This document shows, one piece after another, positions 2,550 to 51,364 of a stretch of 64,000 nt of DNA. This stretch comes from an uncultured Candidatus Saccharibacteria bacterium (GTDB lineage Bacteria > Patescibacteriota > Andersenbacteria > UBA10190). Below the pieces are notes generated by a model, which was given only the letters and a program-made list of their open reading frames with translations, was not told the DNA's origin and did no database searches. Position 1 is the stretch's first letter. The number at the start of each line of letters is the position of its first letter. Location of the stretch: NCBI GenBank assembly GCA_964443125.1, contig CAYUBL010000001.1, positions 16,094-80,093 on the forward strand, given 5' to 3'. The translations under genes and the position numbers were made by a program.

Positions 2550-3772
2550 ACCGGGTACTGTTTCTCGGCGCGGGGGGAACAGGCATGCAAGGACTTGCGT
2601 ATTTGTTCCGTGAAAAAGGAGATGCGGTACTTCTTACCGACGATAACCCCGAGTTTCCCGGCTTGAGCCAAGAGGAAGCCGCGGCGCATCTTCAGGACAT
2701 TTCGCTCATGGTGTACACCGATGCGGCTCCTGAAACGCACGAACTTCGCCGACTGGCTCGAGAAAAATCCGTCCGGCAAATCCCATATCACGAAGCGCTC
2801 GGCGAATTCTCGCGCGCATATACGACCATTGCCGTCACCGGAACGCACGGAAAATCTTCCACCACCGCATTCCTTGCGCATATGTGCATTGAAGCGGGCA
2901 TCGACCCGACCGTATTGGTGGGAGCCCGCATGCCTTCGCTTCCTGGAGGACACGCACGGCTGGGCAAAAGCAAATATTTTATCGTAGAAGCGGACGAATA
3001 CCGCCAGCATTTTCTTCCTCTTGCTCCTGCGCACGCCATTATTACCAGTATCGACTTCGATCATCCGGATGCATTCACTTCGCTCGTCGATGTAGAGCTG
3101 GCGTACAGCGAGTTTCTTGCCCGTGTTGCGTCCGGAGGAACAGTTGCGGTTCCGAGGCATGAATACGAAAACCACCCCGGCATTTCTTGGCCGCACGGCA
3201 CCGACCCCGTAGAGCTCACCCTTGCCGCGCCGCTCCCCGGAGCGCATATGGCGGTCAATGCCGGCTTGGCTGCTCGTATTGCAGCCGTGATCGGTATCCC
3301 GCAAGAACAAGCACGTGTCTCCTTGCAAACTTTTCCGGGACTTGAGCGACGATTTGAATACATCGGAACGGTGCGCGGATGCGACATTCGCTCCGATTAT
3401 GGCCACCATCCTGCCGAACTTCGTGCGACCATCTCCGGCGCCCGCACTGCATACCCGGGTAAACGGCTCGCCGTGCTATTCGAAGCCCATATGCCGCTTC
3501 GGCTGCGAACGTTTTTTGATGAATTTGCGGCAGCCCTTTCGCTTGCGGACAGCATTGCCATCACACCTCCGTTCGCGCCGGCAGGCAGGGATGAAAGCGG
3601 CAGAGAAGATGCGCGGCGCCTGGTAAATACGCTCAAAAACGAAGGGAAAGACGCGCAATACGTTGAAGACGTGGATGCGTATCTCTCCCAAGGCCTTTCC
3701 GCGGATATTCTCCTCTTTTTTAGCGCCGGGCCGCTGGATTCGTTGATCCGAAAAACTGTCAAAAAGGGCTGA
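2546..3772 (+). CDS. murC: UDP-N-acetylmuramate--L-alanine ligase MurC
   Basis: Mur ligase P-loop VTGTHGKSSTTAF. ATGA overlap with the murG stop (translational coupling). Confidence 0.85.
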   Translation: MNRVLFLGAGGTGMQGLAYLFREKGDAVLLTDDNPEFPGLSQEEAAAHLQDISLMVYTDAAPETHELRRLAREKSVRQIPYHEALGEFSRAYTTIAVTGTHGKSSTTAFLAHMCIEAGIDPTVLVGARMPSLPGGHARLGKSKYFIVEADEYRQHFLPLAPAHAIITSIDFDHPDAFTSLVDVELAYSEFLARVASGGTVAVPRHEYENHPGISWPHGTDPVELTLAAPLPGAHMAVNAGLAARIAAVIGIPQEQARVSLQTFPGLERRFEYIGTVRGCDIRSDYGHHPAELRATISGARTAYPGKRLAVLFEAHMPLRLRTFFDEFAAALSLADSIAITPPFAPAGRDESGREDARRLVNTLKNEGKDAQYVEDVDAYLSQGLSADILLFFSAGPLDSLIRKTVKKG

Positions 3773-3891
3773 CAAAAAATAGATTTATCCAGAGTGGACA
3801 AAAATCAATAAGTCTCGTACGATAATTGGTCATATTTGCATATTGTGCATCATATTTGACAATATTTAATTCATATGCTAAAAAGGTATAT

Positions 3892-4965
3892 ATGAACCAA
3901 GAAACTGCGCACCAAGAATCGCAAACTGCAGTCCAAGACAAGCAAACAGTCAATTTTGCGCTTCTTACCGACGCCGCGCTTCAGGCGCTTGATGCACGCT
4001 CCCGGGATATCATTACCCGCCGATTTGGCATTGGAAAAGAGGAGAAAGAAACGCTGGAAAGCATCGGAAAAGAATACGGCATTACCCGAGAACGGGTGCG
4101 CCAAATCGAGTCAAATGCAAAGAAGGAGCTTACATCGATGCGGGATTCTTTCCAAAGCATCGAAGGGCTTTTGGTGGATATTTTCCGCCAGCATGGAGGC
4201 TTGATGGCGGAAAACCATGTGGTTTCCGAAGTGGAATCTCGCGTAGGCGATGAGATTTCCGCGCATGTCATTCATTTCTATCTGACGATTATTCCCGTAT
4301 TCTCTCTGCACCAGCCCAATGCGATGTTCGAGGCTCACTGGAAGCACGAAGCATCCCTCCATGGCAAAGAAGAGCAAATCGTACTCACCGCCATGGAAAC
4401 GCTGAAAGAAAAATCCCAGCCGATGCAGCTCTCGGATTTGATTTCTGAAATCAAGAAAACGATCGGCGAGGATGTTACCGACGCATACATTCATGCTGCG
4501 CTCGCCGCAAGCAAGAATATCGCCAAGACTGCATTTGGAGATTGGGGCCTTATCGGATGGGCAGAAACGTCTCCTCGGGGCGTAGGCGACAAGGCATTTG
4601 CCGTACTTCGCCGCAATAATGCCCCTGCGCATTTTCGGGATATTACGACCATGATCAATGCCGCAAATTTCGACCATAAGAAAGCAAATCCGCAAACCGT
4701 ACACAACGAACTTATTAAAGACGGTAGATTCGTCCTGGTGGGACGCGGCCTCTACGGGCTCAAAGAATGGGGATACGTCGCCGGAACGGTTGCCGATGTA
4801 TTGGAATCCATTTTGAAAAAATCGACTCGGCCGATGAAAAAGCAAGAACTGGTAGAAGAAGTTCTCAAGCAGCGCATGGTAAAAAAGAATACGATTCTGC
4901 TCTCGCTGCAGAATACAGCCCGCTTCGAACGCACAGACAAAGATCTGTACACGCTGCGCGCATAA
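3892..4965 (+). CDS. Protein with an N-terminal sigma-70 region-4 (HTH) domain and a roughly 280-aa uncharacterised C-terminal region
   Basis: Residues about 20-75 (LTDAALQALDARSRDIITRRFGIGKEEKETLESIGKEYGITRERVRQIESNAKKEL) are a canonical sigma-70 r4.2 HTH. No region 2/3 was recognised. AT-rich 116-bp intergenic region upstream with TTGACA-like elements. Start taken as MNQETAHQ. Confidence 0.6.
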   Translation: MNQETAHQESQTAVQDKQTVNFALLTDAALQALDARSRDIITRRFGIGKEEKETLESIGKEYGITRERVRQIESNAKKELTSMRDSFQSIEGLLVDIFRQHGGLMAENHVVSEVESRVGDEISAHVIHFYLTIIPVFSLHQPNAMFEAHWKHEASLHGKEEQIVLTAMETLKEKSQPMQLSDLISEIKKTIGEDVTDAYIHAALAASKNIAKTAFGDWGLIGWAETSPRGVGDKAFAVLRRNNAPAHFRDITTMINAANFDHKKANPQTVHNELIKDGRFVLVGRGLYGLKEWGYVAGTVADVLESILKKSTRPMKKQELVEEVLKQRMVKKNTILLSLQNTARFERTDKDLYTLRA

Positions 4966-4997
4966 CCAACCGTTTTGCGGTACAATGATGGAAGCAT

Positions 4998-6275
4998 ATG
5001 CTTTTGCTTCCTGACATCGTGGCCGCTCTGGCCCCCCAACTGATGACGATCGGGTGGCTTATTGTCGTATGGCTCATTCTCCTTGTTGCATGGAAGACAT
5101 ACATGCTCATGAAAATGATCGACTACATCAGCACGATCGAATGGACGCATCTGCAAGTCACGCTGCCGGAAGATACCGAAGAGACGCCCAAGTCCATGGA
5201 GGTCGTCTACGAAGTCATGGGCGGCATGCATAAAAATCCGGATTTCAATGAACTTTATTTCGACGGATATCTGGAGCCTTGGGTGAGTTTTGAGATGTAC
5301 TTTACCCCCAACAGCGTGCGCTATGTCATGGTAGTGCCCACCGCGCACCGCCGGCTCTTCGAAAGCGTCGTGTACGCCCAGTACCCGAAAGCAAATATTC
5401 AGGAAGTGGAAGATCAATCACTGCGATACGATTGGCATGATCTGCGGAAGAAGTACGAGATGTATGGAACAGAAATAACGCTCGCAGAAGATGACATTCT
5501 GCCCATTCGAACGTATCGCGAATTCGAAGCTACTCTTGCAGAACGAATTCCGTTTGTAGACCCGCATCAAATCATGATCGAAACGCTTACCAACGTGGAG
5601 CCGGGCGAGGAGTTCTGGATCCAGATCTTAGTCCGCCCCATGGATGGCAAAGCAATTAAGAAATGGGAAAAGAACGGAGAAAAGAAAGTTGCGGAAATAT
5701 CCGGCCAAGCCAAAAAGGAAAAGCCCGGCATGTGGGAAAAATTCCGCGATATTGTATTTGCGCTTCCCGGAGAACTGCTGACAGCGATATTCAAAGGCCC
5801 AATTACCGTTGAAAGCGAAAAAGAAGAGAAAGTGCTTCGGTTTTTCAATCCCGTAGACGAGGCGAAGATGAAAGCAATTCTCCAGAAAACATCCGTAAAC
5901 GGGTATAAGGTAAAGATCCGCGCCCTGCATATCGCTCCGGTGGGGCAGCTCAAGAAGCCGAATATCGGACGCCTCATCGGCGTATTCAAACAATTTGCGA
6001 CATTCCATTTAAATCATCTTTACCCAGACTCGACTACAAAGACGAACGGTCCTAATTTTATTATGAGAGACAGGCGCCGCCTGTGGCGAGAGAAAACGAT
6101 TCTCCAAAACTTCCAATGGCGCGACTTTTTCGGGCGGGATTCCGGATATGTCTTAAATGCGGAAGAACTTGCGACGTTGTATCATTTCCCTGTGAAGTAC
6201 GTATCGGCTCCGAGCGTTGCGCGGGCGAAGGCAGGCAAGCAGACGCCTCCTCCGAATTTGCCGTATGTATCCTAG
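4998..6275 (+). CDS. Hypothetical membrane-anchored protein (two N-terminal TM helices plus a large soluble domain); first gene of a pair with the downstream ATPase
   Basis: Hydrophobic N-terminus (IVAALAPQLMTIGWLIVVWLILLVAW), then a 380-aa charged domain. A 6-nt gap separates it from the next gene. Confidence 0.55.
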   Translation: MLLLPDIVAALAPQLMTIGWLIVVWLILLVAWKTYMLMKMIDYISTIEWTHLQVTLPEDTEETPKSMEVVYEVMGGMHKNPDFNELYFDGYLEPWVSFEMYFTPNSVRYVMVVPTAHRRLFESVVYAQYPKANIQEVEDQSLRYDWHDLRKKYEMYGTEITLAEDDILPIRTYREFEATLAERIPFVDPHQIMIETLTNVEPGEEFWIQILVRPMDGKAIKKWEKNGEKKVAEISGQAKKEKPGMWEKFRDIVFALPGELLTAIFKGPITVESEKEEKVLRFFNPVDEAKMKAILQKTSVNGYKVKIRALHIAPVGQLKKPNIGRLIGVFKQFATFHLNHLYPDSTTKTNGPNFIMRDRRRLWREKTILQNFQWRDFFGRDSGYVLNAEELATLYHFPVKYVSAPSVARAKAGKQTPPPNLPYVS

Positions 6276-6281
6276 CTTCCT

Positions 6282-7994
6282 ATGGATAGCGAAGAAATAA
6301 CCGTTATCGGCCAGACGAATTTCCGGAACCAGCGCAGGGCATTCGGCATTTACCCCGATGACCGCAGGCGCCACGTGTATGTGATCGGAAAAACCGGCGT
6401 AGGAAAAACAACCCTCCTCGAAAACATGATCATTCAAGACATCAAGAACGGCAAAGGGTTGGCGCTTGTCGATCCGCACGGCGACGTGGCGGAAAAAATC
6501 CTCGATATCATCCCGCCGGAACGCACCAACGACGTCGTATACTTCGACCCGGCAGACGTTGATTTTCCGGTTGCGTTTAACCCGCTGGAAGCCGTAAATC
6601 CGCAATACAAATATCTCGTCGCATCAGGACTGGTCAGCTCGCTCAAGAAAATATGGGCGGATTCTTGGGGGCCTCGCCTGGAGTATATCTTGCGGAATGT
6701 CATTTTGGCGCTTCTCGACTATCCGTCCAGCACCATGCTGGGAATCATGCGGATGCTCGCGGACAAGGCATACCGGAAGAAAGTTGTGGATACCATCCAA
6801 GACCCCGTCGTGAGAGCATTCTGGACGAACGAATTTGCCAACTACAACGAGCGATTCCGCAGCGAGGCCATTTCTCCCATTCAAAACAAAGTCGGGCAGT
6901 TTTTGAGCTCATCGATTATCCGTAATATCGTCGCCCAGCCCAAGAGCACCATCGACATGCAAGATATCATGGATAACGGAAAGATTTTGCTCATCAACGT
7001 ATCGAAGGGGAGAATCGGAGAAGACAATTCCGCACTCTTGGGCGCCATGCTCATCACCAAGCTTCAACTGGCAGCCATGGACCGCGCAAGCATTCCCGAA
7101 GAGGAGCGGCGAGATTTTTATCTGTACGTAGACGAATTCCAAAACTTCGCGACGGAGTCGTTCGCGACCATTTTGTCTGAAGCCAGAAAATACCGCCTCA
7201 ATCTTATCATTGCGCACCAATATATCACCCAGATGGAAGAAGTGGTCCGCGATGCCGTTTTTGGGAACGTAGGGACCCTCATTTCATTCCGAGTGGGCGC
7301 GTTCGATGCAGAGTACCTGGAAAAAGAATTCGCTCCCTATTTTACCCAGACCGATTTGGTAAATCTCGATAAGTACAACGCCTACATCAAGCTCATGATC
7401 CGCGGAGTAACGAGCGCTCCGTTTTCCATGGAAACCATTCCTCCCGTCTCCGAAACCTATCACAGCAGAGAGAAGGTCATTGCAGTATCGCGCGAGCGAT
7501 ACGGAAACAGGCGGGAAGTCATCGAAGAGAAAATTGCACGATGGAGCGGGGTAGCATTCCAAGCGGAGGCGGAAGAAATCGCGAAAGAAAACCAGCGGCT
7601 CGGACGACAGCTTCCATCCGATGCCCGCCCTCAACAGCAAAGGCAGCCAAAACCGGAAGAGTTGGAAGATATTGTTCTTGCGCCGAAAAAAGAAGAAATG
7701 ATTACGGACTTGTCAGCGCTGCTTGGAAAGAAGGATACTCCTCCTAGTTCATCGCGTGAACAAACCTCCTCTACCCCCTCCCCGCCATTACAGCCGGCAG
7801 GATTTGTAAGGAAGGGAAAGTCGCCCGAACTTTTCGACGCTATCTGTTCCAATTGCGGCAAGCAAACCCAAGTACCCTTCAACCCGGATCCGGAAAAAGA
7901 CGTGTTCTGCAAAGAATGTTACGAAAAGCGCAAAGCGGAGAAGAAAACACTTGCACCAAAGCGCTTCACCGGCCCGCGCCCGCCAAAACTATAG
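6282..7994 (+). CDS. TraD/VirD4/HerA-like P-loop ATPase (type IV coupling-protein-like) with a C-terminal Cys4 zinc ribbon
   Basis: Walker A YVIGKTGVGKTTLL followed by ALVDPHGD, and a Walker B-like LYVDEFQNF, as in TraD/TrwB/HerA-family DNA translocases. The C-terminus carries CSNCGKQ-x15-FCKECY. Confidence 0.65.
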   Translation: MDSEEITVIGQTNFRNQRRAFGIYPDDRRRHVYVIGKTGVGKTTLLENMIIQDIKNGKGLALVDPHGDVAEKILDIIPPERTNDVVYFDPADVDFPVAFNPLEAVNPQYKYLVASGLVSSLKKIWADSWGPRLEYILRNVILALLDYPSSTMLGIMRMLADKAYRKKVVDTIQDPVVRAFWTNEFANYNERFRSEAISPIQNKVGQFLSSSIIRNIVAQPKSTIDMQDIMDNGKILLINVSKGRIGEDNSALLGAMLITKLQLAAMDRASIPEEERRDFYLYVDEFQNFATESFATILSEARKYRLNLIIAHQYITQMEEVVRDAVFGNVGTLISFRVGAFDAEYLEKEFAPYFTQTDLVNLDKYNAYIKLMIRGVTSAPFSMETIPPVSETYHSREKVIAVSRERYGNRREVIEEKIARWSGVAFQAEAEEIAKENQRLGRQLPSDARPQQQRQPKPEELEDIVLAPKKEEMITDLSALLGKKDTPPSSSREQTSSTPSPPLQPAGFVRKGKSPELFDAICSNCGKQTQVPFNPDPEKDVFCKECYEKRKAEKKTLAPKRFTGPRPPKL

Positions 7995-8038
7995 CGAAAC
8001 GCTACAGGCGAACAGCTAATTCGTGCTACAATACTTCC

Positions 8039-8728
8039 ATGCGCTACGACAAATCGGAAAGCAAGAAGATGCCGATCGACAAGCCGTTCGATTTCCACGA
8101 AGACGCAAACTGGAGAATATTCCGCATCATGTCGGAATTCATCGATGGATTCGAGTTCTTATATCCGCTCCGAAAAGAAGTAACATTTTTTGGATCCGCC
8201 CGGTTCCCCGAAGGGCACAAATGGTATGAAGAATCCCGCAAACTCGGCCGCATCCTCGCGGAAAATCAATTCACGGTCATAACGGGCGGCGGTCCCGGCA
8301 TCATGGAAGGCGGCAATCGAGGCGCATACGAAGGCGGCGGAAACTCCATTGGGCTCGACATCGAATTGCCAACTGAGCAACGGCGCAATGCATACGTGAA
8401 GAAGGGGATCGGATTCCATTATTTCTTCACTCGCAAAGTCATGCTTTCCGCGTCCGCCCAAGCATACGTATTTTTTCCCGGCGGGTTCGGTACGCTCGAT
8501 GAATTTTTTGAAATGATAACCCTCATCCAAACGGGCAAGATGATTCCCGTCCCCATCGTTTGCATGAGCAAGCATTTCTGGACTCCGCTGGATAGCTGGA
8601 TTCGGTCGCATCTATTGCAGGAGTACCAGGCAATTTCTCCGGAAGATCTTGACCTGTATACGATTGTCGATACGGCGGAAGACGCGTTCGATATCATTAA
8701 AGACTCAAAAGAGCGGAAATACTTTTAG
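8039..8728 (+). CDS. LOG-family protein (cytokinin riboside 5'-monophosphate phosphoribohydrolase-like; TIGR00730 Rossmann fold)
   Basis: Motifs VITGGGPGIMEGGNRGA and FFPGGFGTLDEFFEMITLIQTGK. Start taken as MRYDKSE. Confidence 0.8.
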   Translation: MRYDKSESKKMPIDKPFDFHEDANWRIFRIMSEFIDGFEFLYPLRKEVTFFGSARFPEGHKWYEESRKLGRILAENQFTVITGGGPGIMEGGNRGAYEGGGNSIGLDIELPTEQRRNAYVKKGIGFHYFFTRKVMLSASAQAYVFFPGGFGTLDEFFEMITLIQTGKMIPVPIVCMSKHFWTPLDSWIRSHLLQEYQAISPEDLDLYTIVDTAEDAFDIIKDSKERKYF

Positions 8729-8752
8729 GCGGCATCCGAGCGTCAGGTTTTT

Positions 8753-9370
8753 TTGACTAAACGCGACGAAATCATTCTTGACCATGCTGCATATGCTATT
8801 CATAGTAAAAGCATGAATGGAGCGTTTACCCATCGGCTTCGCCATCGCGCAAACCGGGAAACCGTAGAAAAACTGCTTCGTACATGGCCTGCAAATTCGC
8901 GAAAACTCGCAAACGAGATGATACATACCTACGGCATGCCATACGAAGCAACTGACACTTTGCTTATCTGGCATTACAACGGTCCCTGGAAGCGCACGGT
9001 GGTCCACCGCAATGGCGTACAGCACAAGGTTCCGCACAATCATACCGATTTGCTTGAACAAACCGTGGATGCAAAGGTGCGTCCTGAGATGTTTTCCGAA
9101 GTCGCAAAGTTCGACGGAAGCATCATTATCGACAAGACAAGAGGGGAAATGACGGCATTCTGTGAAAGCGAGCGGGCAAATACGCTTTTGCTCAACCTTG
9201 CGCACGACATCTGTATCGGCAATAAAACCGCGCAAGAAGCGCGAGCGGAGCTCTTGAGATCTTCGGGTTTTTTCTACTCTCAGCTGCCCAATCCCTATCG
9301 GGAATCTCTCTTGTTCACATCTACCGTGGAAACAAATAATCCGGACATGGTTACGGCCGAGCCGAATTGA
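8753..9370 (+). CDS. Hypothetical protein
   Basis: 205-aa ORF co-directional with its neighbours. A competing 224-aa antisense ORF (8705-9379) is Cys/Arg-rich and less protein-like. No family recognised. Confidence 0.4.
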   Translation: MTKRDEIILDHAAYAIHSKSMNGAFTHRLRHRANRETVEKLLRTWPANSRKLANEMIHTYGMPYEATDTLLIWHYNGPWKRTVVHRNGVQHKVPHNHTDLLEQTVDAKVRPEMFSEVAKFDGSIIIDKTRGEMTAFCESERANTLLLNLAHDICIGNKTAQEARAELLRSSGFFYSQLPNPYRESLLFTSTVETNNPDMVTAEPN

Positions 9371-9404
9371 AATATTCATCCCTACCGAGTACCTTTAAGA
9401 GCGT

Positions 9405-11264
9405 ATGAAAACGCTCAACGAGGCTCGCGAGGCATATCTTTCTTTTTTTCAGGAGAAAGGACACGTTCGCATTCCGTCCGCATCGCTCGTCCCGGACAAT
9501 GATCCTACCACGCTGTTCACCGGATCCGGCATGCAGCCGATGGTGCCCTACTTGCTCGGACAAAAACACCCGCAAGGAAGCCGTATCACCGATTCGCAAA
9601 AATGTTTTCGGCTAAACGACATCGAGGACATCGGCGATAACCGCCATACCACATTTTTTGAAATGCTGGGGAATTGGTCGCTGGGCGACTACTTCAAAGA
9701 AGAACAAATTCCCTGGATGTATGAATTTTTAACCAAAAAACTGGGGCTTGATCCGCGCAACCTCTACGTAACATTTTTTGTCGGCAATGAAGAACTAGGC
9801 ATTGTAAAAGACATGACAAGCGCAACTATCTGGCAGAAGATGTTCCAAACAGACGGCATTGAAGCGATTATCAAAGATGATGCGGAATTAAAAGGAATGC
9901 AAGGCGGGCGGATTTTTTCGTACGACGAAAAGAAAAACTGGTGGTCTCGCGCGGGAGTTCCGGAAAATATGCCGATAGGGGAGCCGGGGGGCCCGGACAC
10001 GGAAATGTTTTGGGATTTTGGGGCAGATCTTTTGCTGCATGAAAAGTCTCCGTATAAAAATCAGCCATGCCATGTTAATTGCGACTGCGGACGCTTTATA
10101 GAAATCGGAAACAACGTATTTATGGAGTACATAAAAACGGAAACCGGATTTTCTCCGCTGCCGCAAAAGAACGTGGACTTCGGAGGAGGCCTGGAGCGAA
10201 TTACTGCCGCGCTCAACAATAATCCGGACGTATTTCTCATCGATGCGTTCAAGCCGGCGATGGACAAGCTTTCAGAGCTATCTCAAACCTCGTACGCCGA
10301 TACACAAGAGATTACGACCGCATATCGCGTCATCCTCGATCACGTGCGCGCCGCGGTATTTTTGATCGGAGACGGCGTACTTCCCGGCAATAAAGAACGC
10401 GAATACTTCGTCCGCCGGCTCATCCGCCGTGCGTCCGTATTCGGAAACCGCTTGAATATCAAAGAACCGTTTTTGTCGAAGCTCGCCGACGGCGTGATTG
10501 CGACATATGCCGATGCATACCCGAACCTTACCGATGCGCGCGACACGATTTTACAAGAACTCACCAAAGAAGAAGAAAAATTCTTGCCCACACTCGTGCA
10601 AGGCTTAAAGAAACTTGCGCAGATATTCCACTCACAGGAAGAAGTTTCCGGCGCGCAGGCATTCGAACTGTATGCAACATTCGGATACCCGATTGAAATG
10701 CAGCTGGAAGAAGCCGAAAAAGCGGGGAAGCGCGTTGATACGGAAGGCTTCAAAGAAGAAATGAAGAAACATCAGGATCTCTCTCGCACGGCTACGGAAG
10801 GAAAATTCAAAGGCGGCCTTGCCGATCACTCCGAGATGTCCGTGAAATATCACACGGCAACGCATTTGCTTCACCAGGCGCTGCGCACCGTGCTGGGCGA
10901 ACACGTATTTCAAAAAGGAAGCAATATCACCCCCGAACGGTTGCGGTTCGACTTTTCGCATCCCGATAAAATGACGCCTGAACAGATCAGGCAAACGGAA
11001 GACCTGGTGAATGAACAAATCCAAAGAGACTTGAATGTTACGCACGAAGAAATGAGCGTTGAGGAAGCAAAAAAACGAAACGCGCTTGGGCTATTCGAGC
11101 ATAAGTACGGCGATACGGTAAGCGTGTATACGGTCGGCGATTTCTCGTGTGAAATTTGCGGCGGCCCGCATGTTGAACATACCGGCGTGCTTGGAAAGTT
11201 TGTGATTACAAAAGAAGAATCCGCCGGTGCAGGCGTGAGGCGGATCAAGGCGGTGTTGAAATAA
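9405..11264 (+). CDS. alaS: Alanine--tRNA ligase, short form (catalytic, tRNA-recognition and editing domains; no C-Ala domain)
   Basis: Class II AlaRS N-terminal motifs (FFQEKGHVRIPSASLVP, FTGSGMQP, GNWSLGDYFKEE). Editing-domain HxxxH (HTATHLLHQALR) and CxxxH (CGGPHVEHTG). 619 aa against a typical ~870. Confidence 0.85.
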   Translation: MKTLNEAREAYLSFFQEKGHVRIPSASLVPDNDPTTLFTGSGMQPMVPYLLGQKHPQGSRITDSQKCFRLNDIEDIGDNRHTTFFEMLGNWSLGDYFKEEQIPWMYEFLTKKLGLDPRNLYVTFFVGNEELGIVKDMTSATIWQKMFQTDGIEAIIKDDAELKGMQGGRIFSYDEKKNWWSRAGVPENMPIGEPGGPDTEMFWDFGADLLLHEKSPYKNQPCHVNCDCGRFIEIGNNVFMEYIKTETGFSPLPQKNVDFGGGLERITAALNNNPDVFLIDAFKPAMDKLSELSQTSYADTQEITTAYRVILDHVRAAVFLIGDGVLPGNKEREYFVRRLIRRASVFGNRLNIKEPFLSKLADGVIATYADAYPNLTDARDTILQELTKEEEKFLPTLVQGLKKLAQIFHSQEEVSGAQAFELYATFGYPIEMQLEEAEKAGKRVDTEGFKEEMKKHQDLSRTATEGKFKGGLADHSEMSVKYHTATHLLHQALRTVLGEHVFQKGSNITPERLRFDFSHPDKMTPEQIRQTEDLVNEQIQRDLNVTHEEMSVEEAKKRNALGLFEHKYGDTVSVYTVGDFSCEICGGPHVEHTGVLGKFVITKEESAGAGVRRIKAVLK

Positions 11265-11326
11265 AATCCCTCCGAACCACGATGGTCCGGAGGGCCGCTG
11301 GGGAACAGAAAGGAAAACCCAGCGAG

Positions 11327-11455
11327 TTACTTTTTGCGTCGTTGAGGTTTCTTCATCGCCGGAGCGAAGTTACGCCGTTCGCCGCGCGATTTTTTCCGAG
11401 AAGTCTTGGGCAGTTTATGTCCGTGACGCGTGGACGTAGGATCCATGATAGCCAT
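11327..11455 (-). CDS. 42-aa highly basic peptide (MAIMDPTSTRHGHKLPKTSRKKSRGERRNFAPAMKKPQRRKK), ribosomal-protein-like composition
   Basis: Below the track's length cut-off. Strong RBS AAGGAGAG 6 nt upstream of the ATG and 16 nt downstream of the preceding minus-strand gene. Lys/Arg-rich. Confidence 0.45.
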   Translation of the reverse strand: MAIMDPTSTRHGHKLPKTSRKKSRGERRNFAPAMKKPQRRKK

Positions 11456-11471
11456 CTGTACTCTCCTTCAT

Positions 11472-11705
11472 TTACTCCAGAAGATCCAATTCTTTAAGAA
11501 ACCTCTCGACTTCTTCCGGTGAAACGATTTTCGGGTGCATCTTGCGATCTTTTTCCGGCAATGCATATTCGCATGCCTTGCAGTCCCATCCATCAAAGGG
11601 AGTGCTGCATTTCGGGCAGCACGGCAGCGCCGGCTCCACATTGGATTCTTCAGTAATATCCTGTGACCAGGAAATCTCGGGATCGGAATTGGTATCCATC
11701 ATCAT
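11472..11705 (-). CDS. Small zinc-ribbon protein (CxxC...CxxC)
   Basis: 77 aa with PCCPKCSTPFDGWDCKACEY. Minus-strand ORF in an otherwise + strand region, with a co-oriented downstream peptide gene. Confidence 0.45.
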   Translation of the reverse strand: MMMDTNSDPEISWSQDITEESNVEPALPCCPKCSTPFDGWDCKACEYALPEKDRKMHPKIVSPEEVERFLKELDLLE

Positions 11706-11782
11706 GAACCCCCATTAATTGTACGAATTGGCAGAGAACGACTCTTGGCTCTTTATACACCAATGCGCTACAATTACAATCA

Positions 11783-13180
11783 ATGCGAGACATTAAGCCA
11801 ACCGGGAATATCCGCAAAGTTCCGTCGCACAAGCATTCCGATACGCTGCCGCCGGAAGCGGCAGAGCTGTTGCATACGCATGCAAAGAAAGCGAAAAAGC
11901 GCCGCTTTACCGGATCGAAGGTTTCCATTACGAACGTGCATGTCCCGAGGCAATCCGTAGCAAAGCGAAGCGAATCTCGCCCGCTGTTTGCGAGCGTTCC
12001 CACGAATACAAAGAAACGGCGAGCGCGTCGCATGAGCATGAGTCTTGGCGGCAAAGAGCGGACCATCGCGCTTGGACTGCTGGGGGCGCTCCTTGTCATG
12101 GGGGGCATTGCGGCACTTATCTTTCTTCCCACGGCTTCTATTGCGCTGACGATCCAGACCGCTCCGCTCCTGGTCGATCAAAAACTGACCATTGCAACAA
12201 ATCCTTCCGCCATTCCCAATGCTATTCCGGGAAGCGTCTTCACCCAACAAGTGGACGTCCAGGGATCATCTCCCGTTACGAGCACGGAAGTAGTCGGAAA
12301 CAAAGCGACCGGCAAGGTACAGCTCATCAACAAAACCTTCGATGAACAAAAAATCAAAGAACGAAGCAGGCTCGTCACTAAAGAAGGAACGCTCTTTTAC
12401 ATGAAAGGATCTGCAACAATTCCCGCAGCAAGTCCGTCTGGCGTGACAAGCGTCATTGTTGACGTGGAAGCTGCGGAGGCGGGCGAGCAGGGGAATATAT
12501 CGGCCCAGCGCCTTGACTTCGCCGCGCTTGATTCTTCAGCGCAATCGCTTGTATACGGACAAAGCCTTGACACCTTTACCGGCGGAAGCGGGGAGACGGT
12601 CTCCGTAGTGAAAGAAGCCGATATCGAACAAGCTAAAGCAGCAGCGGCATCAGAGGCACGCTTACAAGTAGAGCAAGCAGCCCAAAGCCAATTGCAGAAA
12701 GGCTGGCTTTTATTGGATGAAAGCTGGGATGTCGCGCTGTCTCAATTCACCCCGAGCAGCGCCGTCGGCGATCGCGTCGAATCCATTCCCTATACCGCTC
12801 AAGCAACCGTACGCGTCATGGCATTTCGGGAAGACGCGATGAATGCGGCTGTCGAGCAGGCGCTTACCAGCCAGCTTACAGAAGACTACATGCTGTTCCC
12901 CGGTCCTATTTCCTATACAAAATCCGTTGACACCTCCAACTGGGATGCAGGGCAAGTTTCCATGACGGCACGCGTGACCCATACCACCATTCCAAGTTTT
13001 TCCATCGCAACATTAAAAGAGAAGCTTGCAGGCCGCAAGGAAGAGGAAGCGAAAAACTATCTGACTGGCCTTCCGGGTGTCCAGAACGCATCGGTTACCC
13101 TCTGGCCGTTCTGGGTACAGCGAGTGCCAGAAATCCAGAAGCGCATCGATATCCAGCTGGCCTCAGACCGAGAGCTCTAA
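11783..13180 (+). CDS. Hypothetical membrane-anchored protein (basic N-terminus, single TM, large extracytoplasmic domain)
   Basis: TM segment TIALGLLGALLVMGGIAALIFL, then a Ser/Thr/Ala-rich domain. The start is uncertain (alternatives near 12032/12038). Confidence 0.5.
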   Translation: MRDIKPTGNIRKVPSHKHSDTLPPEAAELLHTHAKKAKKRRFTGSKVSITNVHVPRQSVAKRSESRPLFASVPTNTKKRRARRMSMSLGGKERTIALGLLGALLVMGGIAALIFLPTASIALTIQTAPLLVDQKLTIATNPSAIPNAIPGSVFTQQVDVQGSSPVTSTEVVGNKATGKVQLINKTFDEQKIKERSRLVTKEGTLFYMKGSATIPAASPSGVTSVIVDVEAAEAGEQGNISAQRLDFAALDSSAQSLVYGQSLDTFTGGSGETVSVVKEADIEQAKAAAASEARLQVEQAAQSQLQKGWLLLDESWDVALSQFTPSSAVGDRVESIPYTAQATVRVMAFREDAMNAAVEQALTSQLTEDYMLFPGPISYTKSVDTSNWDAGQVSMTARVTHTTIPSFSIATLKEKLAGRKEEEAKNYLTGLPGVQNASVTLWPFWVQRVPEIQKRIDIQLASDREL

Positions 13181-13189
13181 ATAGAGGAT

Positions 13190-13218
13190 TTGACAGCCTT
13201 TTTGCTCTCCTCTATACT
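13190..13218 (+). promoter_or_regulatory. Sigma-70-type promoter upstream of infA (-35 TTGACA, 17-nt spacer, -10 TATACT)
   Basis: TTGACA at 13190-13195 and TATACT at 13213-13218, followed by a roughly 145-nt untranslated leader before infA. Confidence 0.6.
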
Positions 13219-13363
13219 ATAGTTTATCTGCGCTGCACGATTTCGGACTGATGCGTATTTCCCTCTTCTGGAGGATAAGCATGTGTCTTGAAATCCGTTC
13301 AGCTTAGCGGATTTTCTTCATTTTTAATCGTATTATCCTCTGCCAAAACCCAATACCGTCGAA

Positions 13364-13558
13364 GTGGATGGGGAAATCGTCGACACCCTTCCAAATACCC
13401 AGTTTAAAGTCCAGCTCGATACCGGGCAGGAAATTATCGGGCACCTTTCCGGAAAAATGCGCGTCCACAGGATCCGCGTCATGCCGGGAGACAGAGTCCG
13501 GGTAGAAATGTCGGCATACGATCTCACAAAAGGCAGAATCATTCTTCGATTGCAATAA
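13364..13558 (+). CDS. infA: Translation initiation factor IF-1
   Basis: S1-like fold sequence ...[56 protein letters not shown]. Apparent GTG start. Upstream of rpmJ-rpsM-rpsK-rpsD-rpoA-rplQ. Confidence 0.85.
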
Positions 13559-13565
13559 TACCCAT

Positions 13566-13679
13566 ATGAAAGTACGAGCTTCCGTAAAAAAGATGTGCGC
13601 AAAGTGCAAAACAACCCGCCGAAAAGGGAAGGTTGTTGTCATTTGCGAAAATCCGAAACATAAGCAACGTCAACGATAA
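13566..13679 (+). CDS. rpmJ: 50S ribosomal protein L36
   Basis: [37 protein letters not shown] (37 aa, Cys3His zinc ribbon). Short, so not in the ORF track. Confidence 0.9.
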
Positions 13680-13682
13680 CCT

Positions 13683-14075
13683 ATGCCTATTCGAATCAGC
13701 GGAGTAACACTCCAAGACAAAAAGCGGATCCTCTTCGCCCTTACCGATATTTACGGAATCGGGCGGTCGGCTTCCGCGAAAATCTTGCACACGCTCAAGA
13801 TCGATCCGACCATTTTTACGCGCGACCTGACAGACAAGGAAGAGCAGGCGTTGCGCGAATATATCGAAAAGAATATCCGGGTTGAAGGAGAACTGCGCCG
13901 CGATGTCTCGATGCATATCAAGCATCACCGAGATATCGGAACCTATCGCGGAATCCGCCATGCAAAACACCTTCCCGTACGCGGACAGCGAACAAAGACG
14001 AATTCCCGCACGGTGCGCGGAAACGTCCGCAGAACAGCAGGAAGCGGAAGAAAATCATCTAACGAAAAGACCTAA
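13683..14075 (+). CDS. rpsM: 30S ribosomal protein S13
   Basis: S13 sequence (ALTDIYGIGRSASAKIL...GIRHAKHLPVRGQRTKTNSRT) in alpha-operon order. Confidence 0.9.
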   Translation: MPIRISGVTLQDKKRILFALTDIYGIGRSASAKILHTLKIDPTIFTRDLTDKEEQALREYIEKNIRVEGELRRDVSMHIKHHRDIGTYRGIRHAKHLPVRGQRTKTNSRTVRGNVRRTAGSGRKSSNEKT

Positions 14076-51000: not shown

Positions 51001-51364
51001 TTCCGGCCCGTATTCCGGTGTAGAGCCATCCAAAAAAACGATCGTGCTTGCCGCGAATAATTCCAGACTGGAACGATCCGTATCTGTCCCGCGTGGCGAC
51101 TACTGGCTCGACGTGCAAGTAAAGAACGATACTCCCGCTCCGGTATATTTTGCGGTATATCTTGACGGCAAAGCATGGAAAATCGTCCGCGCAATCCAAG
51201 GAACCAATGCCTATCGGCTTGAGCGCGCAGGGCTGCTGAGAAACTTCAGCAGCGGAACGATCGCATTTCGCATGATCAACGACACCTACGATAAATCGCA
51301 GCCTACCAATGCAGCTAAAGACCGCAACCTGCATATCGACTGGTGGCGCCTGGTATCCTACTAG
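48071..51364 (+). CDS. Large secreted/cell-surface protein (1097 aa) with N-terminal signal anchor, Fn3/Ig-like regions, a PT-repeat linker and a C-terminal carbohydrate-binding-module-like domain
   Basis: N-terminal [20 protein letters not shown]. Gly/Ser/Thr-rich beta-type composition. Linker [35 protein letters not shown] roughly 130-aa C-terminal beta-rich domain ending ...[10 protein letters not shown]. Confidence 0.6.
50755..50860 (+). repeat. Low-complexity ACN/CCN codon repeat encoding the Pro-Thr linker
   Basis: Degenerate tandem CCAAC/CCGAC/ACACC repeats within the large surface-protein gene. Confidence 0.7.

What the first reader, a model, noticed from the sequence alone, without database searches (positions are those of the whole stretch)
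4998..7994. Two-gene module inside a housekeeping region: membrane protein plus TraD/VirD4/HerA-like ATPase with a C-terminal Cys4 zinc ribbon
A 425-aa membrane-anchored protein is separated by a 6-nt spacer from a 570-aa P-loop ATPase. The ATPase Walker A context (YVIGKTGVGKTTLL...ALVDPHGD) and Walker B-like LYVDEFQNF resemble type IV coupling proteins and HerA/FtsK DNA translocases. It ends in an unusual zinc ribbon (CSNCGKQ-x15-FCKECY) after a low-complexity Pro/Ser linker. The pair sits between murC-region genes and LOG/alaS, not in any recognisable conjugative or T4SS context. A coupling-protein-like translocase with no relaxase or VirB partners suggests a distinct role, such as DNA uptake or export, or an unrecognised membrane nucleic-acid pump.
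Basis: partly seen in the sequence, partly recalled or inferred. Interest (0 to 1): 0.6.

Follow-up and report, generated by a model that had tools for sequence, protein, structure and literature searches.

The report
Split coupling-protein-like ATPase of Patescibacteria
A gene pair kept across the ultra-small Patescibacteria encodes a membrane anchor plus an ATPase related to the DNA-handling "coupling proteins" of bacterial conjugation, but it is a highly conserved core chromosomal gene with no conjugation genes nearby, so it probably moves nucleic acid at the membrane for a purpose nobody has tested.

Summary
Window 4998-6275 encodes a 425-aa single-pass membrane protein of Pfam family DUF8128. 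Six bases later, 6282-7994 encodes a 570-aa soluble ATPase of the VirD4/TrwB type with a C-terminal CxxC-x17-CxxC zinc ribbon. The organism is a Candidatus Andersenbacteria (Patescibacteria/CPR).

New findings here:
- DUF8128 lies directly upstream of the ATPase in 61 of 80 related genome loci.
- A paralogue fuses both proteins into one ~830-aa protein in at least 79 metagenome loci, so the two form one machine.
- The ATPase core is more conserved than AlaRS, MurC or MurG in the same genomes (median 66% identity across classes).
- A Sigma70_r4/HARE-HTH gene is a third conserved member, present in 55 of 61 loci.
- All neighbours are housekeeping or cell-division genes, with no T4SS or relaxase.
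- Distant fused relatives occur in Bacillus phages G and SPO1, next to a VirB4-like ATPase or a relaxase-like nickase.

This is most likely the "orphan T4CP" already counted in Patescibacteria. I read it as a two-part, membrane-tethered hexameric motor for nucleic acid. The substrate and direction are inferred, not shown.

The parts
3826..4965 (+). Sigma70_r4 + HARE-HTH (RNAP-delta-like) DNA-binding protein. It is the conserved third gene of the module. The true start may be the ATG at about 3892.
   Evidence: Pfam Sigma70_r4 2.3e-14 and HARE-HTH 7.5e-13. NCBIfam RNAP_delt_lowGC 61.5 bits against a cutoff of 42. Homologue two genes upstream of the ATPase (position -2) in 55 of the 61 loci that carry the pair.
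4998..6275 (+). DUF8128 (PF26449) subunit, 425 aa. It has one N-terminal transmembrane helix and a cytoplasmic domain with a VirB4-like / EccE-like fold.
5049..5111 (+). Transmembrane helix IGWLIVVWLILLVAWKTYMLM (aa 18-38). Lysines follow the helix, so the large domain is predicted to be cytoplasmic.
   Evidence: Hydropathy scan, motif coordinates, and a long N-terminal helix in the model. The topology is an inference from the positive-inside rule.
6246..6272 (+). C-terminal PPPNLPYVS motif of DUF8128. Homologues with long tails repeat the 'PPxNLP' motif at their end. It corresponds to the junction with the ATPase domain in the fused paralogue.
   Evidence: Alignment A2 and the fusion junction seen.
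6276..6281 (.). 6-nt spacer between the stop codon of DUF8128 and the ATG of the ATPase.
   Evidence: Sequence read.
6282..7994 (+). Soluble VirD4/TrwB-type (T4CP-like) P-loop ATPase, 570 aa, with a disordered C-terminal tail.
   Evidence: No transmembrane segment.
6282..7556 (+). Conserved motor core (aa 1-425). It holds Walker A at 6387-6410, Walker B at 7116-7139, the IIAHQY sensor region at 7206-7223, and a helical insertion at about aa 100-230 that aligns with the all-alpha domain of TrwB.
   Evidence: Invariant columns in A1/A4. hhalign against TrwB, query 30-325 to TrwB 119-393. Median 66% identity over 80 loci.
7557..7826 (+). Low-complexity linker containing a conserved short motif, LEDIV...ITDLSALL (7662-7724).
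   Evidence: Alignments A1/A4. pLDDT below 50. Coordinates.
7827..7934 (+). Treble-clef zinc ribbon, CxxC-x17-CxxC (four Cys at aa 522, 525, 543, 546).
   Evidence: Pfam zf_Tbcl_2 7.3e-15 and TIGR04272 2.4e-15. Present in 70 of 81 orthologues. The domain family binds zinc in M. mazei small proteins (PMC12704099).
7965..7991 (+). C-terminal motif FTGPRPPKL, the Andersenbacteria version. Other clades end in [LI][KR]PG[QE]x[IV]xF or VNLDEVRxLI.

Best explanation
The two genes encode the two halves of one membrane-tethered motor.

The DUF8128 protein is predicted to cross the membrane once and to place a scaffold domain in the cytoplasm. That domain has a fold like that of VirB4/TrwK and of EccE. 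The downstream gene gives a soluble ATPase of the VirD4/TrwB coupling-protein type. By analogy with TrwB it should form a hexameric ring. The DUF8128 scaffold would hold that ring at the membrane, doing in trans what the N-terminal membrane domain does in a canonical coupling protein.

The ATPase carries a flexible C-terminal tail with a zinc ribbon and clade-specific short motifs. I take this tail to be the recognition arm for a substrate or an adaptor. The Sigma70_r4/HARE-HTH protein encoded just upstream is a candidate adaptor.

The module is a vertically inherited core gene set of Patescibacteria, not a mobile element. It is most likely one of the 'orphan T4CP homologues' already counted in that phylum. 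I propose that it uses ATP to move or hand over nucleic acid at the cytoplasmic membrane, independently of a relaxase. The most likely setting is import or processing of DNA/RNA, or feeding the phylum's relaxase-less T4SS-like apparatus.

Shown: gene structure, homology, fold similarity, co-conservation, the fusion, the degree of conservation and the genomic context.

Inferred: topology, hexamer formation, the DUF8128-ATPase contact, nucleic acid as substrate, and direction of transport.
For: - T4CP-type ATPase: Pfam and NCBIfam hits. TrwB and DotL are the best solved relatives by sequence. hhalign against TrwB gives 94.7% probability, E 5.8e-8, over 263 colinear columns spanning Walker A to the Q sensor. 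The alignment to TrsK of pGO1 is colinear over 301 columns but weak (8.5% probability, E 0.004). Against VirB4-type TrwK and TrsE, only the P-loop aligns.
- One machine: DUF8128 lies immediately upstream on the same strand in 61/80 loci from several Patescibacteria lineages. A paralogue fuses TM + DUF8128-like + ATPase core in that order. That fusion is a single ORF in 79/80 metagenome loci, and 498 candidate stretches encode a relative.
- The ATPase has no transmembrane segment, while DUF8128 has one.
- Core gene: ATPase core identity is 72% against AlaRS 53%, 79% against MurC 41%, and 79% against MurG 49% in the same genome pairs. At least 595 species genomes hold a relative. Only 11 loci were found in 2.9 million viral contigs. 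GC content matches the flanks.
- No T4SS or relaxase nearby.
- Link to DNA in relatives: SPO1 gp27.4 lies next to the Replic_Relax nickase gp27.3, and phage G gp156 lies next to the VirB4-like gp155. In 14 Falkowbacteria-like loci the ATPase lies next to an RNase_T exonuclease and nrdD-nrdG.
- Literature: 5,713 VirD4-like homologues in 2,918 of 3,035 Patescibacteria genomes, only 148 of them near virB4 (PMC12102498). That is about two per genome, which fits the split and fused paralogues.
Against: - No result here shows the substrate.
- The ATPase model was too poor to inspect a channel (pLDDT 55).
- The zinc ribbon weakly resembles LIM-domain fingers, which bind proteins (E 0.006). It is absent from 11/81 orthologues and from the fused paralogue.
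- DUF8128 is not adjacent in 17 loci that have upstream DNA. In a Magasanikbacteria contig it stands alone between secF and dnaG.
- The DUF8128 to VirB4 similarity exists only at fold level. hhalign against the TrwK and TrsD sequences found nothing. I also could not see which part of TrwK was aligned.
- The T4CP homologue of Southlakia epibionticum was reported as not essential for epibiotic growth (PMC12102498). That fits poorly with a core essential role unless the paralogues are redundant or that gene is not an orthologue.
- Scores lie far below the curated NCBIfam cut-offs for every named T4CP family.
Confidence: 0.55

Rival explanations
1. It is the ordinary coupling protein of the Patescibacterial T4SS, merely encoded far from the virB4 cluster. 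It would recruit substrates (proteins or DNA) for export to the host cell through that system.
For: T4CP homology. T4CP genes are often encoded away from virB4. Patescibacterial T4SS clusters lack a coupling protein of their own (PMC12102498; PMC10633639). VirB4 is present in 2,417/3,035 genomes. A tail with short motifs is typical of a substrate receptor.
Against: The T4CP homologues are found in more genomes (2,918) than VirB4 (2,417). The T4SS genes of Southlakia are essential but its T4CP homologue is not. Conservation above that of aminoacyl-tRNA synthetases is unlike plasmid T4CPs. The ATPase has its own VirB4-like scaffold subunit, which a T4SS-docked T4CP would not need. No T4SS gene appears in 80 + 80 loci.
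Confidence: 0.17
2. It is a division-linked chromosome translocase. Under this reading it is a functional analogue of FtsK/SpoIIIE that clears or segregates DNA at the septum, with the zinc ribbon or the HARE-HTH protein providing DNA recognition.
For: It belongs to the same FtsK/HerA superfamily. Its neighbours are division and cell-wall genes in two different arrangements: ftsW-murG-murC here, and ftsA-ftsZ ... DivIC-ftsE-ftsX in other clades. The fused paralogue lies next to dnaX in 58/80 loci. The degree of conservation is that of a housekeeping gene.
Against: No FtsK_SpoIIIE or gamma-domain hit. The helical insertion and overall colinearity are of TrwB type, and TrwB-type rings are thought to handle single strands. 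At least Saccharibacteria have an annotated ftsK (papers listed). Small genomes pack housekeeping genes tightly, so neighbourhood evidence is weak. My FtsK search of the fetched DNA was uninformative.
Confidence: 0.13
3. It is an assembly or secretion ATPase for proteins rather than nucleic acid. It would resemble VirB4 (pilus/pilin handling) or EccC-EccE (type VII secretion), with DUF8128 as the membrane platform.
For: The DUF8128 fold matches VirB4/TrwK and EccE. The ribbon is weakly LIM-like, that is, protein-binding. secA/secD/secF are recurrent neighbours.
Against: The ATPase domain is VirD4-like, not VirB4-like. Phage relatives sit beside a nickase. No pilin or substrate genes are conserved next to it.
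Confidence: 0.1
4. It is a remnant of a mobile element or an anti-phage defence ATPase (HerA-like or MADS mad8-like) that happens to sit in a housekeeping region.
For: PADLOC mad8 3.2e-17 and HerA models 1e-8. Relatives exist in phages and on predicted viral contigs.
Against: The position is syntenic and the gene vertically conserved in at least 595 species, with 66% median identity. No other mad, Sir2 or nuclease partner was found, nor an integrase or repeats. Composition matches the flanks. The viral relatives lack both DUF8128 and the tail.
Confidence: 0.03

Closest known systems
TrwB / VirD4-type type IV coupling proteins (R388 TrwB, PDB 1e9r; TrsK of pGO1)
   Same: P-loop nucleotide-binding domain with the same order of Walker A, helical insertion, Walker B and Q-sensor region. 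Pfam TrwB_AAD_bind, T4SS-DNA_transf and TraG-D_C all score above their gathering thresholds.
   Different: There is no N-terminal transmembrane domain in the same chain, so the anchor is a separate DUF8128 protein. No relaxase or mating-pair genes lie nearby. The tail carries a zinc ribbon instead of an acidic TraM-binding tail. Conservation is far higher. Scores are far below the NCBIfam equivalog cut-offs.
'Orphan' VirD4-like T4CP homologues of Patescibacteria (Quinonero-Coronel et al. 2025, PMC12102498)
   Same: Most likely the same genes. They are VirD4-like, found in nearly every genome at about two copies, almost never near virB4, and suggested to be exapted.
   Different: That study did not describe the DUF8128 partner, its VirB4-like fold, the split and fused paralogues, the zinc-ribbon tail, the HARE-HTH neighbour or the extreme conservation. 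I could not check its sequence lists, so the identity of the two sets is an inference.
VirB4 / TrwK (R388, PDB 7o42, 8rtd), compared with the DUF8128 subunit
   Different: No sequence-level similarity (hhalign probability 0.2%). The ATPase partner is VirD4-like, not VirB4-like. That the matched part of TrwK is its N-terminal domain is my inference, because DUF8128 has no P-loop. The tools did not report the aligned range.
phrog_5156: Bacillus phage G gp156 and phage SPO1 gp27.4 (uncharacterised)
   Same: Same two-domain architecture (DUF8128-like + T4CP-like ATPase) in one chain. phrog_5156 matches the fused paralogue at 1.2e-83 and the window ATPase at 1.1e-62. gp156 hits both of my HMMs.
   Different: About 24% identity, with no N-terminal transmembrane helix apparent in gp156 and no zinc-ribbon tail. 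The phage genes sit beside a VirB4-like ATPase (gp155) or a Replic_Relax nickase and an actin-like partition protein.
EccE-EccC of ESX type VII secretion
   Different: EccC is a multi-domain FtsK-like protein translocase. No other Ecc or Esx genes are present, and the similarity is fold-level only.
FtsK / SpoIIIE DNA translocases
   Same: Same superfamily, membrane-tethered hexameric motor, division-gene neighbourhood.
   Different: No FtsK_SpoIIIE Pfam hit, no gamma domain, no multi-pass membrane domain. tblastn with the FtsK motor does not even find this ATPase.
TrsD of pGO1-type Gram-positive T4SS (VirB4-N-terminal-like, abundant in Patescibacterial T4SS clusters)
   Same: The literature describes it as remotely related to the N-terminal part of VirB4 and encoded separately from the ATPase.
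   Different: No detectable similarity to DUF8128 by hhalign (probability 0.15%). TrsD is 227 aa and lies next to virB4, not next to a T4CP-like gene.

Membership tests
VirD4/TrwB-type type IV coupling protein (T4CP) | P-loop nucleotide-binding domain homologous and colinear with TrwB (Walker A, Walker B, Q sensor) | tested here: met
   Pfam TrwB_AAD_bind 39.6 bits (cut-off 20.5), T4SS-DNA_transf 29.5 (20.1), TraG-D_C 34.9 (22). phmmer against TrwB 2e-7. hhalign 94.7% probability over 263 columns.
VirD4/TrwB-type type IV coupling protein (T4CP) | All-alpha domain inserted in the nucleotide-binding domain | tested here: inconclusive
   The hhalign alignment runs through the TrwB all-alpha region, and aa 107-218 are predicted helical. 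However, the AF2 model has pLDDT 55, so the fold is not verified.
VirD4/TrwB-type type IV coupling protein (T4CP) | N-terminal transmembrane domain in the same polypeptide | tested here: not met
   No hydrophobic segment, and Walker A starts at aa 36. The anchor is apparently supplied by the separate DUF8128 protein, or by fusion in the paralogue.
VirD4/TrwB-type type IV coupling protein (T4CP) | Genomic association with a relaxase and/or mating-pair-formation (VirB4 etc.) genes | tested here: not met
   None in the 64-kb window, in 80 genome loci, or around the fused paralogue.
VirD4/TrwB-type type IV coupling protein (T4CP) | Score above the curated cut-off of a named T4CP family (NCBIfam TraD, CD1115, etc.) | tested here: not met
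   SXT_TraD 50 against 366, CD1115 45 against 250, TraD_Ftype 17 against 521.
VirD4/TrwB-type type IV coupling protein (T4CP) | Recruits substrates to a T4SS channel | not testable with these tools
   Needs genetics or biochemistry.
VirB4 (T4SS signature ATPase) | VirB4-type N-terminal domain | tested here: inconclusive
   [not shown]
VirB4 (T4SS signature ATPase) | VirB4-type C-terminal ATPase domain | tested here: not met
   Only the P-loop aligns with TrwK (probability 4.8%, 35 columns) and with TrsE (39 columns). NCBIfam VirB4_CagE scores 22 against 643.
FtsK/SpoIIIE | FtsK_SpoIIIE motor domain, gamma winged-helix domain, multi-pass membrane domain | tested here: not met
   No Pfam hit at E 0.01. 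tblastn with the E. coli FtsK motor does not find the gene. There are no transmembrane segments, and the tail carries a zinc ribbon instead of a gamma domain.
HerA / DUF87 helicases | DUF87 central domain | tested here: met
   Pfam DUF87 30.7 bits against cut-off 23.2, a weaker hit than the T4CP families.
HerA / DUF87 helicases | NurA-type nuclease or defence partner (Sir2, DUF4297) in the neighbourhood | tested here: not met
   No such gene among the recurrent neighbours. The PADLOC hits are to the ATPase domain only.
DUF8128 (PF26449) | Match to the Pfam model | tested here: inconclusive
   The local Pfam copy gave no hit and apparently lacks the model. Nearly all listed homologues, at up to 83% identity, carry a precomputed PF26449 hit, which names as DUF8128.
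zf_Tbcl_2 / TIGR04272 CxxC-x17-CxxC zinc ribbon | Four cysteines with CxxC-x17-CxxC spacing, and a score above cut-off | tested here: met
   54.8 bits against 27 and 56 bits against 36. Cysteines at aa 522/525/543/546. Zinc binding itself was not tested here; it was shown for archaeal members (PMC12704099).
MADS defence system (mad8) | mad8 together with the other mad genes | tested here: not met
   mad8 hit 3.2e-17 on the ATPase only. Neighbours are housekeeping genes.

The most novel reading that the evidence does not exclude
The DUF8128 + T4CP-like ATPase pair, together with its HARE-HTH neighbour and fused paralogue, is the motor of a so far unrecognised housekeeping machine found across Patescibacteria. 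This machine would pull nucleic acid (host RNA or DNA) across or along the cytoplasmic membrane, acting as a coupling protein run 'in reverse' for import. It would be the missing step in how these bacteria, which lack nucleotide synthesis, feed on host nucleic acids. It would also represent an evolutionary intermediate that combines a VirB4-like scaffold with a VirD4-like motor.
Probability: 0.18. Interest if true: 0.9.

Novelty: new variant of a known kind. Interest (0 to 1): 0.62.

Why it matters
Patescibacteria make up a large share of bacterial diversity. They cannot make nucleotides and are reported to take up host DNA and RNA by unknown routes (PMC10633639; bioRxiv 10.64898/2026.06.21.733656). 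A membrane-tethered ATPase of the conjugation coupling-protein type is present in nearly every genome, is conserved more strongly than tRNA synthetases, and is unlinked from any secretion system. It is one of the few obvious candidate motors for such traffic, or for chromosome handling in these tiny cells, and it has no assigned function.

Three results make it a defined target for knock-down, localisation and biochemistry in the few tractable strains:
- It has a dedicated scaffold subunit with a VirB4/EccE-like fold.
- It has a fused paralogue.
- It has phage relatives that sit next to nickases.

These results also bear on how VirB4, VirD4 and EccC/EccE-type machines are related. If the function turns out to be the ordinary coupling step of the known T4SS, the finding reduces to a useful annotation.

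Tried and rejected
- AF2 model of the ATPase from 40 close homologues: pLDDT 55, unusable, so no fold search was run on it.
- The afdb50 fold library was not available.
- PDB sequence search with DUF8128: no hit even at E 10.
- hhalign of the DUF8128 profile against the TrwK and TrsD sequences: nothing. The VirB4 link therefore rests on fold similarity alone.
- Promoter and terminator scan of 3600-9500: counts no higher than in shuffled sequence, so it says nothing about operon structure.
- Literature searches for 'DUF8128' (0 papers) and for FtsK in Patescibacteria/CPR gave nothing decisive.
- tblastn with the E. coli FtsK motor against 1.79 Mb of fetched Patescibacterial DNA: 0 hits. Only about 1.8 would be expected, so this is uninformative about whether these lineages have FtsK.
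- Defence-system reading: rejected because only the ATPase domain hits PADLOC models and the context is syntenic housekeeping.
- Mobile-element reading: rejected on composition, synteny and conservation.
- The 81-115-aa tail-anchored membrane protein upstream of the ATPase in loci without DUF8128, and the 160-aa protein upstream of the fused paralogue, were inspected as possible substitute anchors. No similarity to DUF8128 or to each other was evident.
- The first word-indexed homologue search reached only 174 DUF8128 relatives. The profile search over representatives was needed to see the true family size.

Full report
**1. The observation.**
4998-6275 encodes 425 aa and 6282-7994 encodes 570 aa. 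A TAG stop and a 6-nt spacer separate them.
- The ATPase has Walker A GKTGVGKT (aa 36-43), Walker B FYLYVDEF (aa 279-286) and a CxxC-x17-CxxC ribbon (aa 522-546).
- The upstream protein has one hydrophobic helix (aa 18-38). The ATPase has none.
- GC content matches the flanks.
Downstream are a LOG-family protein and a short alaS.
- The rest of the window is housekeeping (secA, secD, PBP2, lysS, serS, dnaX, glycosyltransferases) with no T4SS gene.
- Names attached to homologues place the window in Candidatus Andersenbacteria (Patescibacteria/CPR). One database protein is identical to the ATPase.

**2. The ATPase.**
- Pfam gives TrwB_AAD_bind (3.8e-10), TraG-D_C (1.7e-8), DUF87 (4.1e-7) and T4SS-DNA_transf (4.6e-7), all above gathering thresholds. 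It also gives zf_Tbcl_2 for the ribbon (7.3e-15).
- NCBIfam hits are TraD- and VirD4-like families, but far below their cut-offs. TIGR04272 matches the ribbon.
- TrwB and DotL are the closest solved structures by sequence.
- A profile of 40 orthologues aligns with R388 TrwB at 94.7% probability over 263 colinear columns, from Walker A through the helical insertion to the Q-sensor region.
- It also aligns colinearly with the Gram-positive T4CP TrsK, though only weakly (8.5% probability, E 0.004).
- With the VirB4-type ATPases TrwK and TrsE, only the P-loop aligns. There is no FtsK_SpoIIIE hit.
- I conclude that it is a VirD4/TrwB-type motor that lacks the usual N-terminal membrane domain.
- My AF2 model of it was poor (pLDDT 55). 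The all-alpha domain is therefore supported only by alignment and predicted helices.

**3. The membrane protein.**
- It has no hit in the local Pfam or NCBIfam copies, nor in the PDB by sequence.
- Its homologues carry PF26449, which names as DUF8128.
- A profile search of 1.84 billion cluster representatives finds 3,701 clusters at E <= 1e-3 and 1,191 at E <= 1e-30.
- An AF2 model from 30 diverse homologues is confident (pLDDT 81.4, pTM 0.78). It shows a long N-terminal helix followed by an alpha/beta domain.
- Foldseek independently ranks eleven TrwK chains first (E 1.6e-4 to 7.7e-4).
- DUF8128 has no P-loop. The matched part of VirB4 is therefore presumably its non-ATPase N-terminal domain. 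This is an inference, because the tools do not print the aligned range.
- No sequence-level similarity to TrwK or to TrsD was detectable.

**4. The pair is one unit.**
- A scan of one genome per species found at least 595 species with a relative of the ATPase. 80 loci were fetched, from Andersen-, Kerfeld-, Doudna-, Falkow-, Moran- and Buchananbacteria, Paceibacter and others.
- A DUF8128 gene sits immediately upstream on the same strand in 61 of the 80 loci.
- Two of the remaining loci have no upstream DNA. In 16 loci the ATPase follows nrdD-nrdG, and in one it follows ftsZ-nrdR.
- In a Magasanikbacteria contig, DUF8128 stands between secF and dnaG without the ATPase. Some clades have therefore unlinked the two genes.
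- Locus L054 also carries a paralogue in which a transmembrane helix, a DUF8128-like domain and the ATPase core are fused in that order.
- A metagenome scan with that paralogue found 498 stretches encoding a relative. 79 of the 80 fetched loci have a single ORF with both domains. Complete ORFs are mostly 822-864 aa and end where the conserved core of the split ATPase ends, with no tail and no ribbon.
- This fusion is strong evidence that DUF8128 and the ATPase work together physically.

**5. A third conserved gene, and the context.**
- Clustering the neighbours shows a homologue of the Sigma70_r4/HARE-HTH protein two genes upstream of the ATPase (position -2) in 55 of the 61 loci with the pair.
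- Other recurrent neighbours are division and envelope genes:
  - ftsW-murG-murC in the Andersenbacteria arrangement;
  - secD-secF in others;
  - in the Falkowbacteria-like arrangement, ftsA-ftsZ-nrdR-nrdD-nrdG, a small tail-anchored membrane protein, the ATPase, an RNase_T-type exonuclease, a GT2 membrane protein, DivIC, a DD-carboxypeptidase, ftsE and ftsX.
- The fused paralogue lies beside dnaX in 58/80 loci, and beside serS, corA, rpmA, dus, cysS and pyrG.
- No relaxase or T4SS gene was seen anywhere.

**6. Conservation.**

| Protein compared with the window | Identity | ATPase core in the same genome pairs | Loci |
|---|---|---|---|
| ATPase core (aa 1-425) | median 66% | n/a | 80 |
| AlaRS | mean 53% | mean 72% | 23 |
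| MurC | mean 41% | mean 79% | 11 |
| MurG | mean 49% | mean 79% | 9 |
| FtsW | mean 69% | mean 83% | 7 |
| DUF8128 | median 29% | n/a | 60 |
| HARE-HTH protein | median 36% | n/a | 55 |

This level of constraint is unlike that of plasmid coupling proteins and fits a core cellular machine.

The tail is variable but keeps several features:
- a short LEDxV...ITDLxxLL motif;
- the ribbon, in 70/81 orthologues;
- clade-specific C-terminal motifs.

The ribbon family binds zinc in archaeal small proteins (PMC12704099). It weakly resembles LIM fingers.

**7. Relatives outside the phylum.**
- phrog_5156 matches the fused paralogue end to end (1.2e-83), the window ATPase (1.1e-62) and the window DUF8128 (1.1e-8).
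- tblastn finds Bacillus phage G gp156 (87% coverage, 24% identity) and SPO1-like phages, represented by gp27.4.
- gp156 and gp27.4 contain both domains.
- gp156 sits next to the VirB4-like ATPase gp155. gp27.4 sits next to the Replic_Relax nickase gp27.3 and the actin-like partition protein gp27.9.
- In IMG/VR only 11 loci carry related ATPases. These are core-only proteins without DUF8128 or tail, and some sit beside a second ATPase.
- PADLOC mad8 and HerA models hit the ATPase domain only.

**8. What is already published.**
- Quinonero-Coronel et al. 2025 found 5,713 VirD4-like T4CP homologues in 2,918 of 3,035 Patescibacteria genomes. Only 148 were near virB4.
- They noted that the Southlakia homologue was not essential, and suggested the genes may have been exapted (PMC12102498).
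- About two copies per genome fits the split and fused paralogues found here.
- Wang et al. 2023 noted that the essential Southlakia T4SS lacks a recognisable coupling protein and relaxase (PMC10633639).
- A 2026 preprint reports uptake of host RNA by a cultured Patescibacterium, with the route unresolved.
- I found no paper on DUF8128.

**9. Interpretation.**
*Shown:* a conserved, vertically inherited module made of a DUF8128 membrane scaffold and a TrwB-type ATPase with a ribbon-bearing tail, usually preceded by a HARE-HTH protein. It has a fused paralogue and phage relatives linked to DNA-processing genes.

*Inferred:* DUF8128 tethers a hexameric ATPase ring to the cytoplasmic face of the membrane. 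The tail recruits a substrate or adaptor. The machine moves nucleic acid without a relaxase.

I rank four readings:
- a T4SS-independent, or only loosely coupled, nucleic-acid handling role: 0.55;
- the ordinary T4SS coupling role: 0.17;
- an FtsK-like division role: 0.13;
- a protein-secretion or assembly role: 0.10.

Defence and mobile-element readings are very unlikely.

It should be filed as working like a T4CP and as a relative of that family. It should not be filed as a canonical member, because three defining features (own membrane domain, T4SS/relaxase association, curated family score) were tested and not met.

**10. Verdict.**
The functional suggestion is plausible but untested. The finding is a new variant of a known kind, and a well-defined, highly conserved gene set of unknown function in a major bacterial radiation. 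Interest is 0.62.

Noticed in passing
window 3826-4965 (+): Protein with Sigma70 region 4 plus HARE-HTH (RNAP-delta-like) domains. A homologue sits two genes upstream of the ATPase in 55 of the 61 loci that carry the pair, so it is probably a third component or a co-regulated partner.
   Followed up: partly
L054:11200-12840; L084-L163 (e.g. L084:5001-7499): Paralogue of about 830 aa that fuses a TM helix, a DUF8128-like domain and the ATPase core, without the tail or zinc ribbon. It is widespread in metagenomes. It usually follows a 160-aa unknown protein (55/80 loci), and dnaX lies one or two genes downstream (58/80 loci).
   Followed up: partly
L165:3321-7463 (Bacillus phage G gp155-gp156); L164:2008-7518 (phage SPO1 gp27.9-gp27.3): Phage members of the same two-domain family (phrog_5156). 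They sit beside a VirB4-like ATPase (phage G) or beside a Replic_Relax nickase and an actin-like partition protein (SPO1). This looks like a conjugation-like DNA-handling module inside virulent phages.
   Followed up: partly
L012, L015, L017, L038, L039, L052, L059, L062 and others, about 3500-14000: In a Falkowbacteria-like clade the ATPase lies without DUF8128 in the gene order ftsA-ftsZ-nrdR-nrdD-nrdG, an 81-115-aa tail-anchored membrane protein, the ATPase, an RNase_T exonuclease, GT2, DivIC, a DD-carboxypeptidase, ftsE and ftsX. Here the ATPase is flanked by a ribonucleotide reductase and an exonuclease.
   Followed up: partly
[not shown]
   Followed up: no
L082:8001-9497: In a Magasanikbacteria contig, DUF8128 sits alone between secA-secD-secF and dnaG-rpoD with no ATPase next to it. 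The pair has been unlinked in some clades.
   Followed up: no
L168-L178: Eleven predicted viral contigs carry core-only relatives of the ATPase (358-678 aa, 29-61% identity) with no DUF8128 hit and no zinc ribbon. In at least two contigs (L173, L177) a second 730-770-aa ATPase lies next to it, as in phage G.
   Followed up: partly
window 4981-4986 and 8027-8032: TACAAT boxes resembling a -10 element lie 10-12 nt upstream of the start codons of the DUF8128 gene and of the LOG gene. They may mark promoters with very short leaders. The general promoter scan did not exceed chance.
   Followed up: no
window 48071-51364 (+): ORF of 1097 aa with no Pfam hit at E 1e-5.
   Followed up: no
window 11783-13180 (+): Protein of 465 aa with one predicted membrane segment and only a weak Baseplate_J hit (E 0.0076). 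Homologues recur downstream of the module in 9 loci.
   Followed up: no
window 9405-11264 (+): The alanyl-tRNA synthetase is only 619 aa, much shorter than the usual bacterial enzyme of about 870 aa (the latter figure is from my own knowledge). Homologues in related loci are of similar length.
   Followed up: no
window 6246-6272 and 7965-7991: Both proteins end in short proline-rich motifs: PPPNLPYVS in DUF8128 and FTGPRPPKL in the ATPase. DUF8128 homologues with long tails repeat 'PPxNLP' at their C-terminus. These may be docking peptides for a common partner.
   Followed up: no
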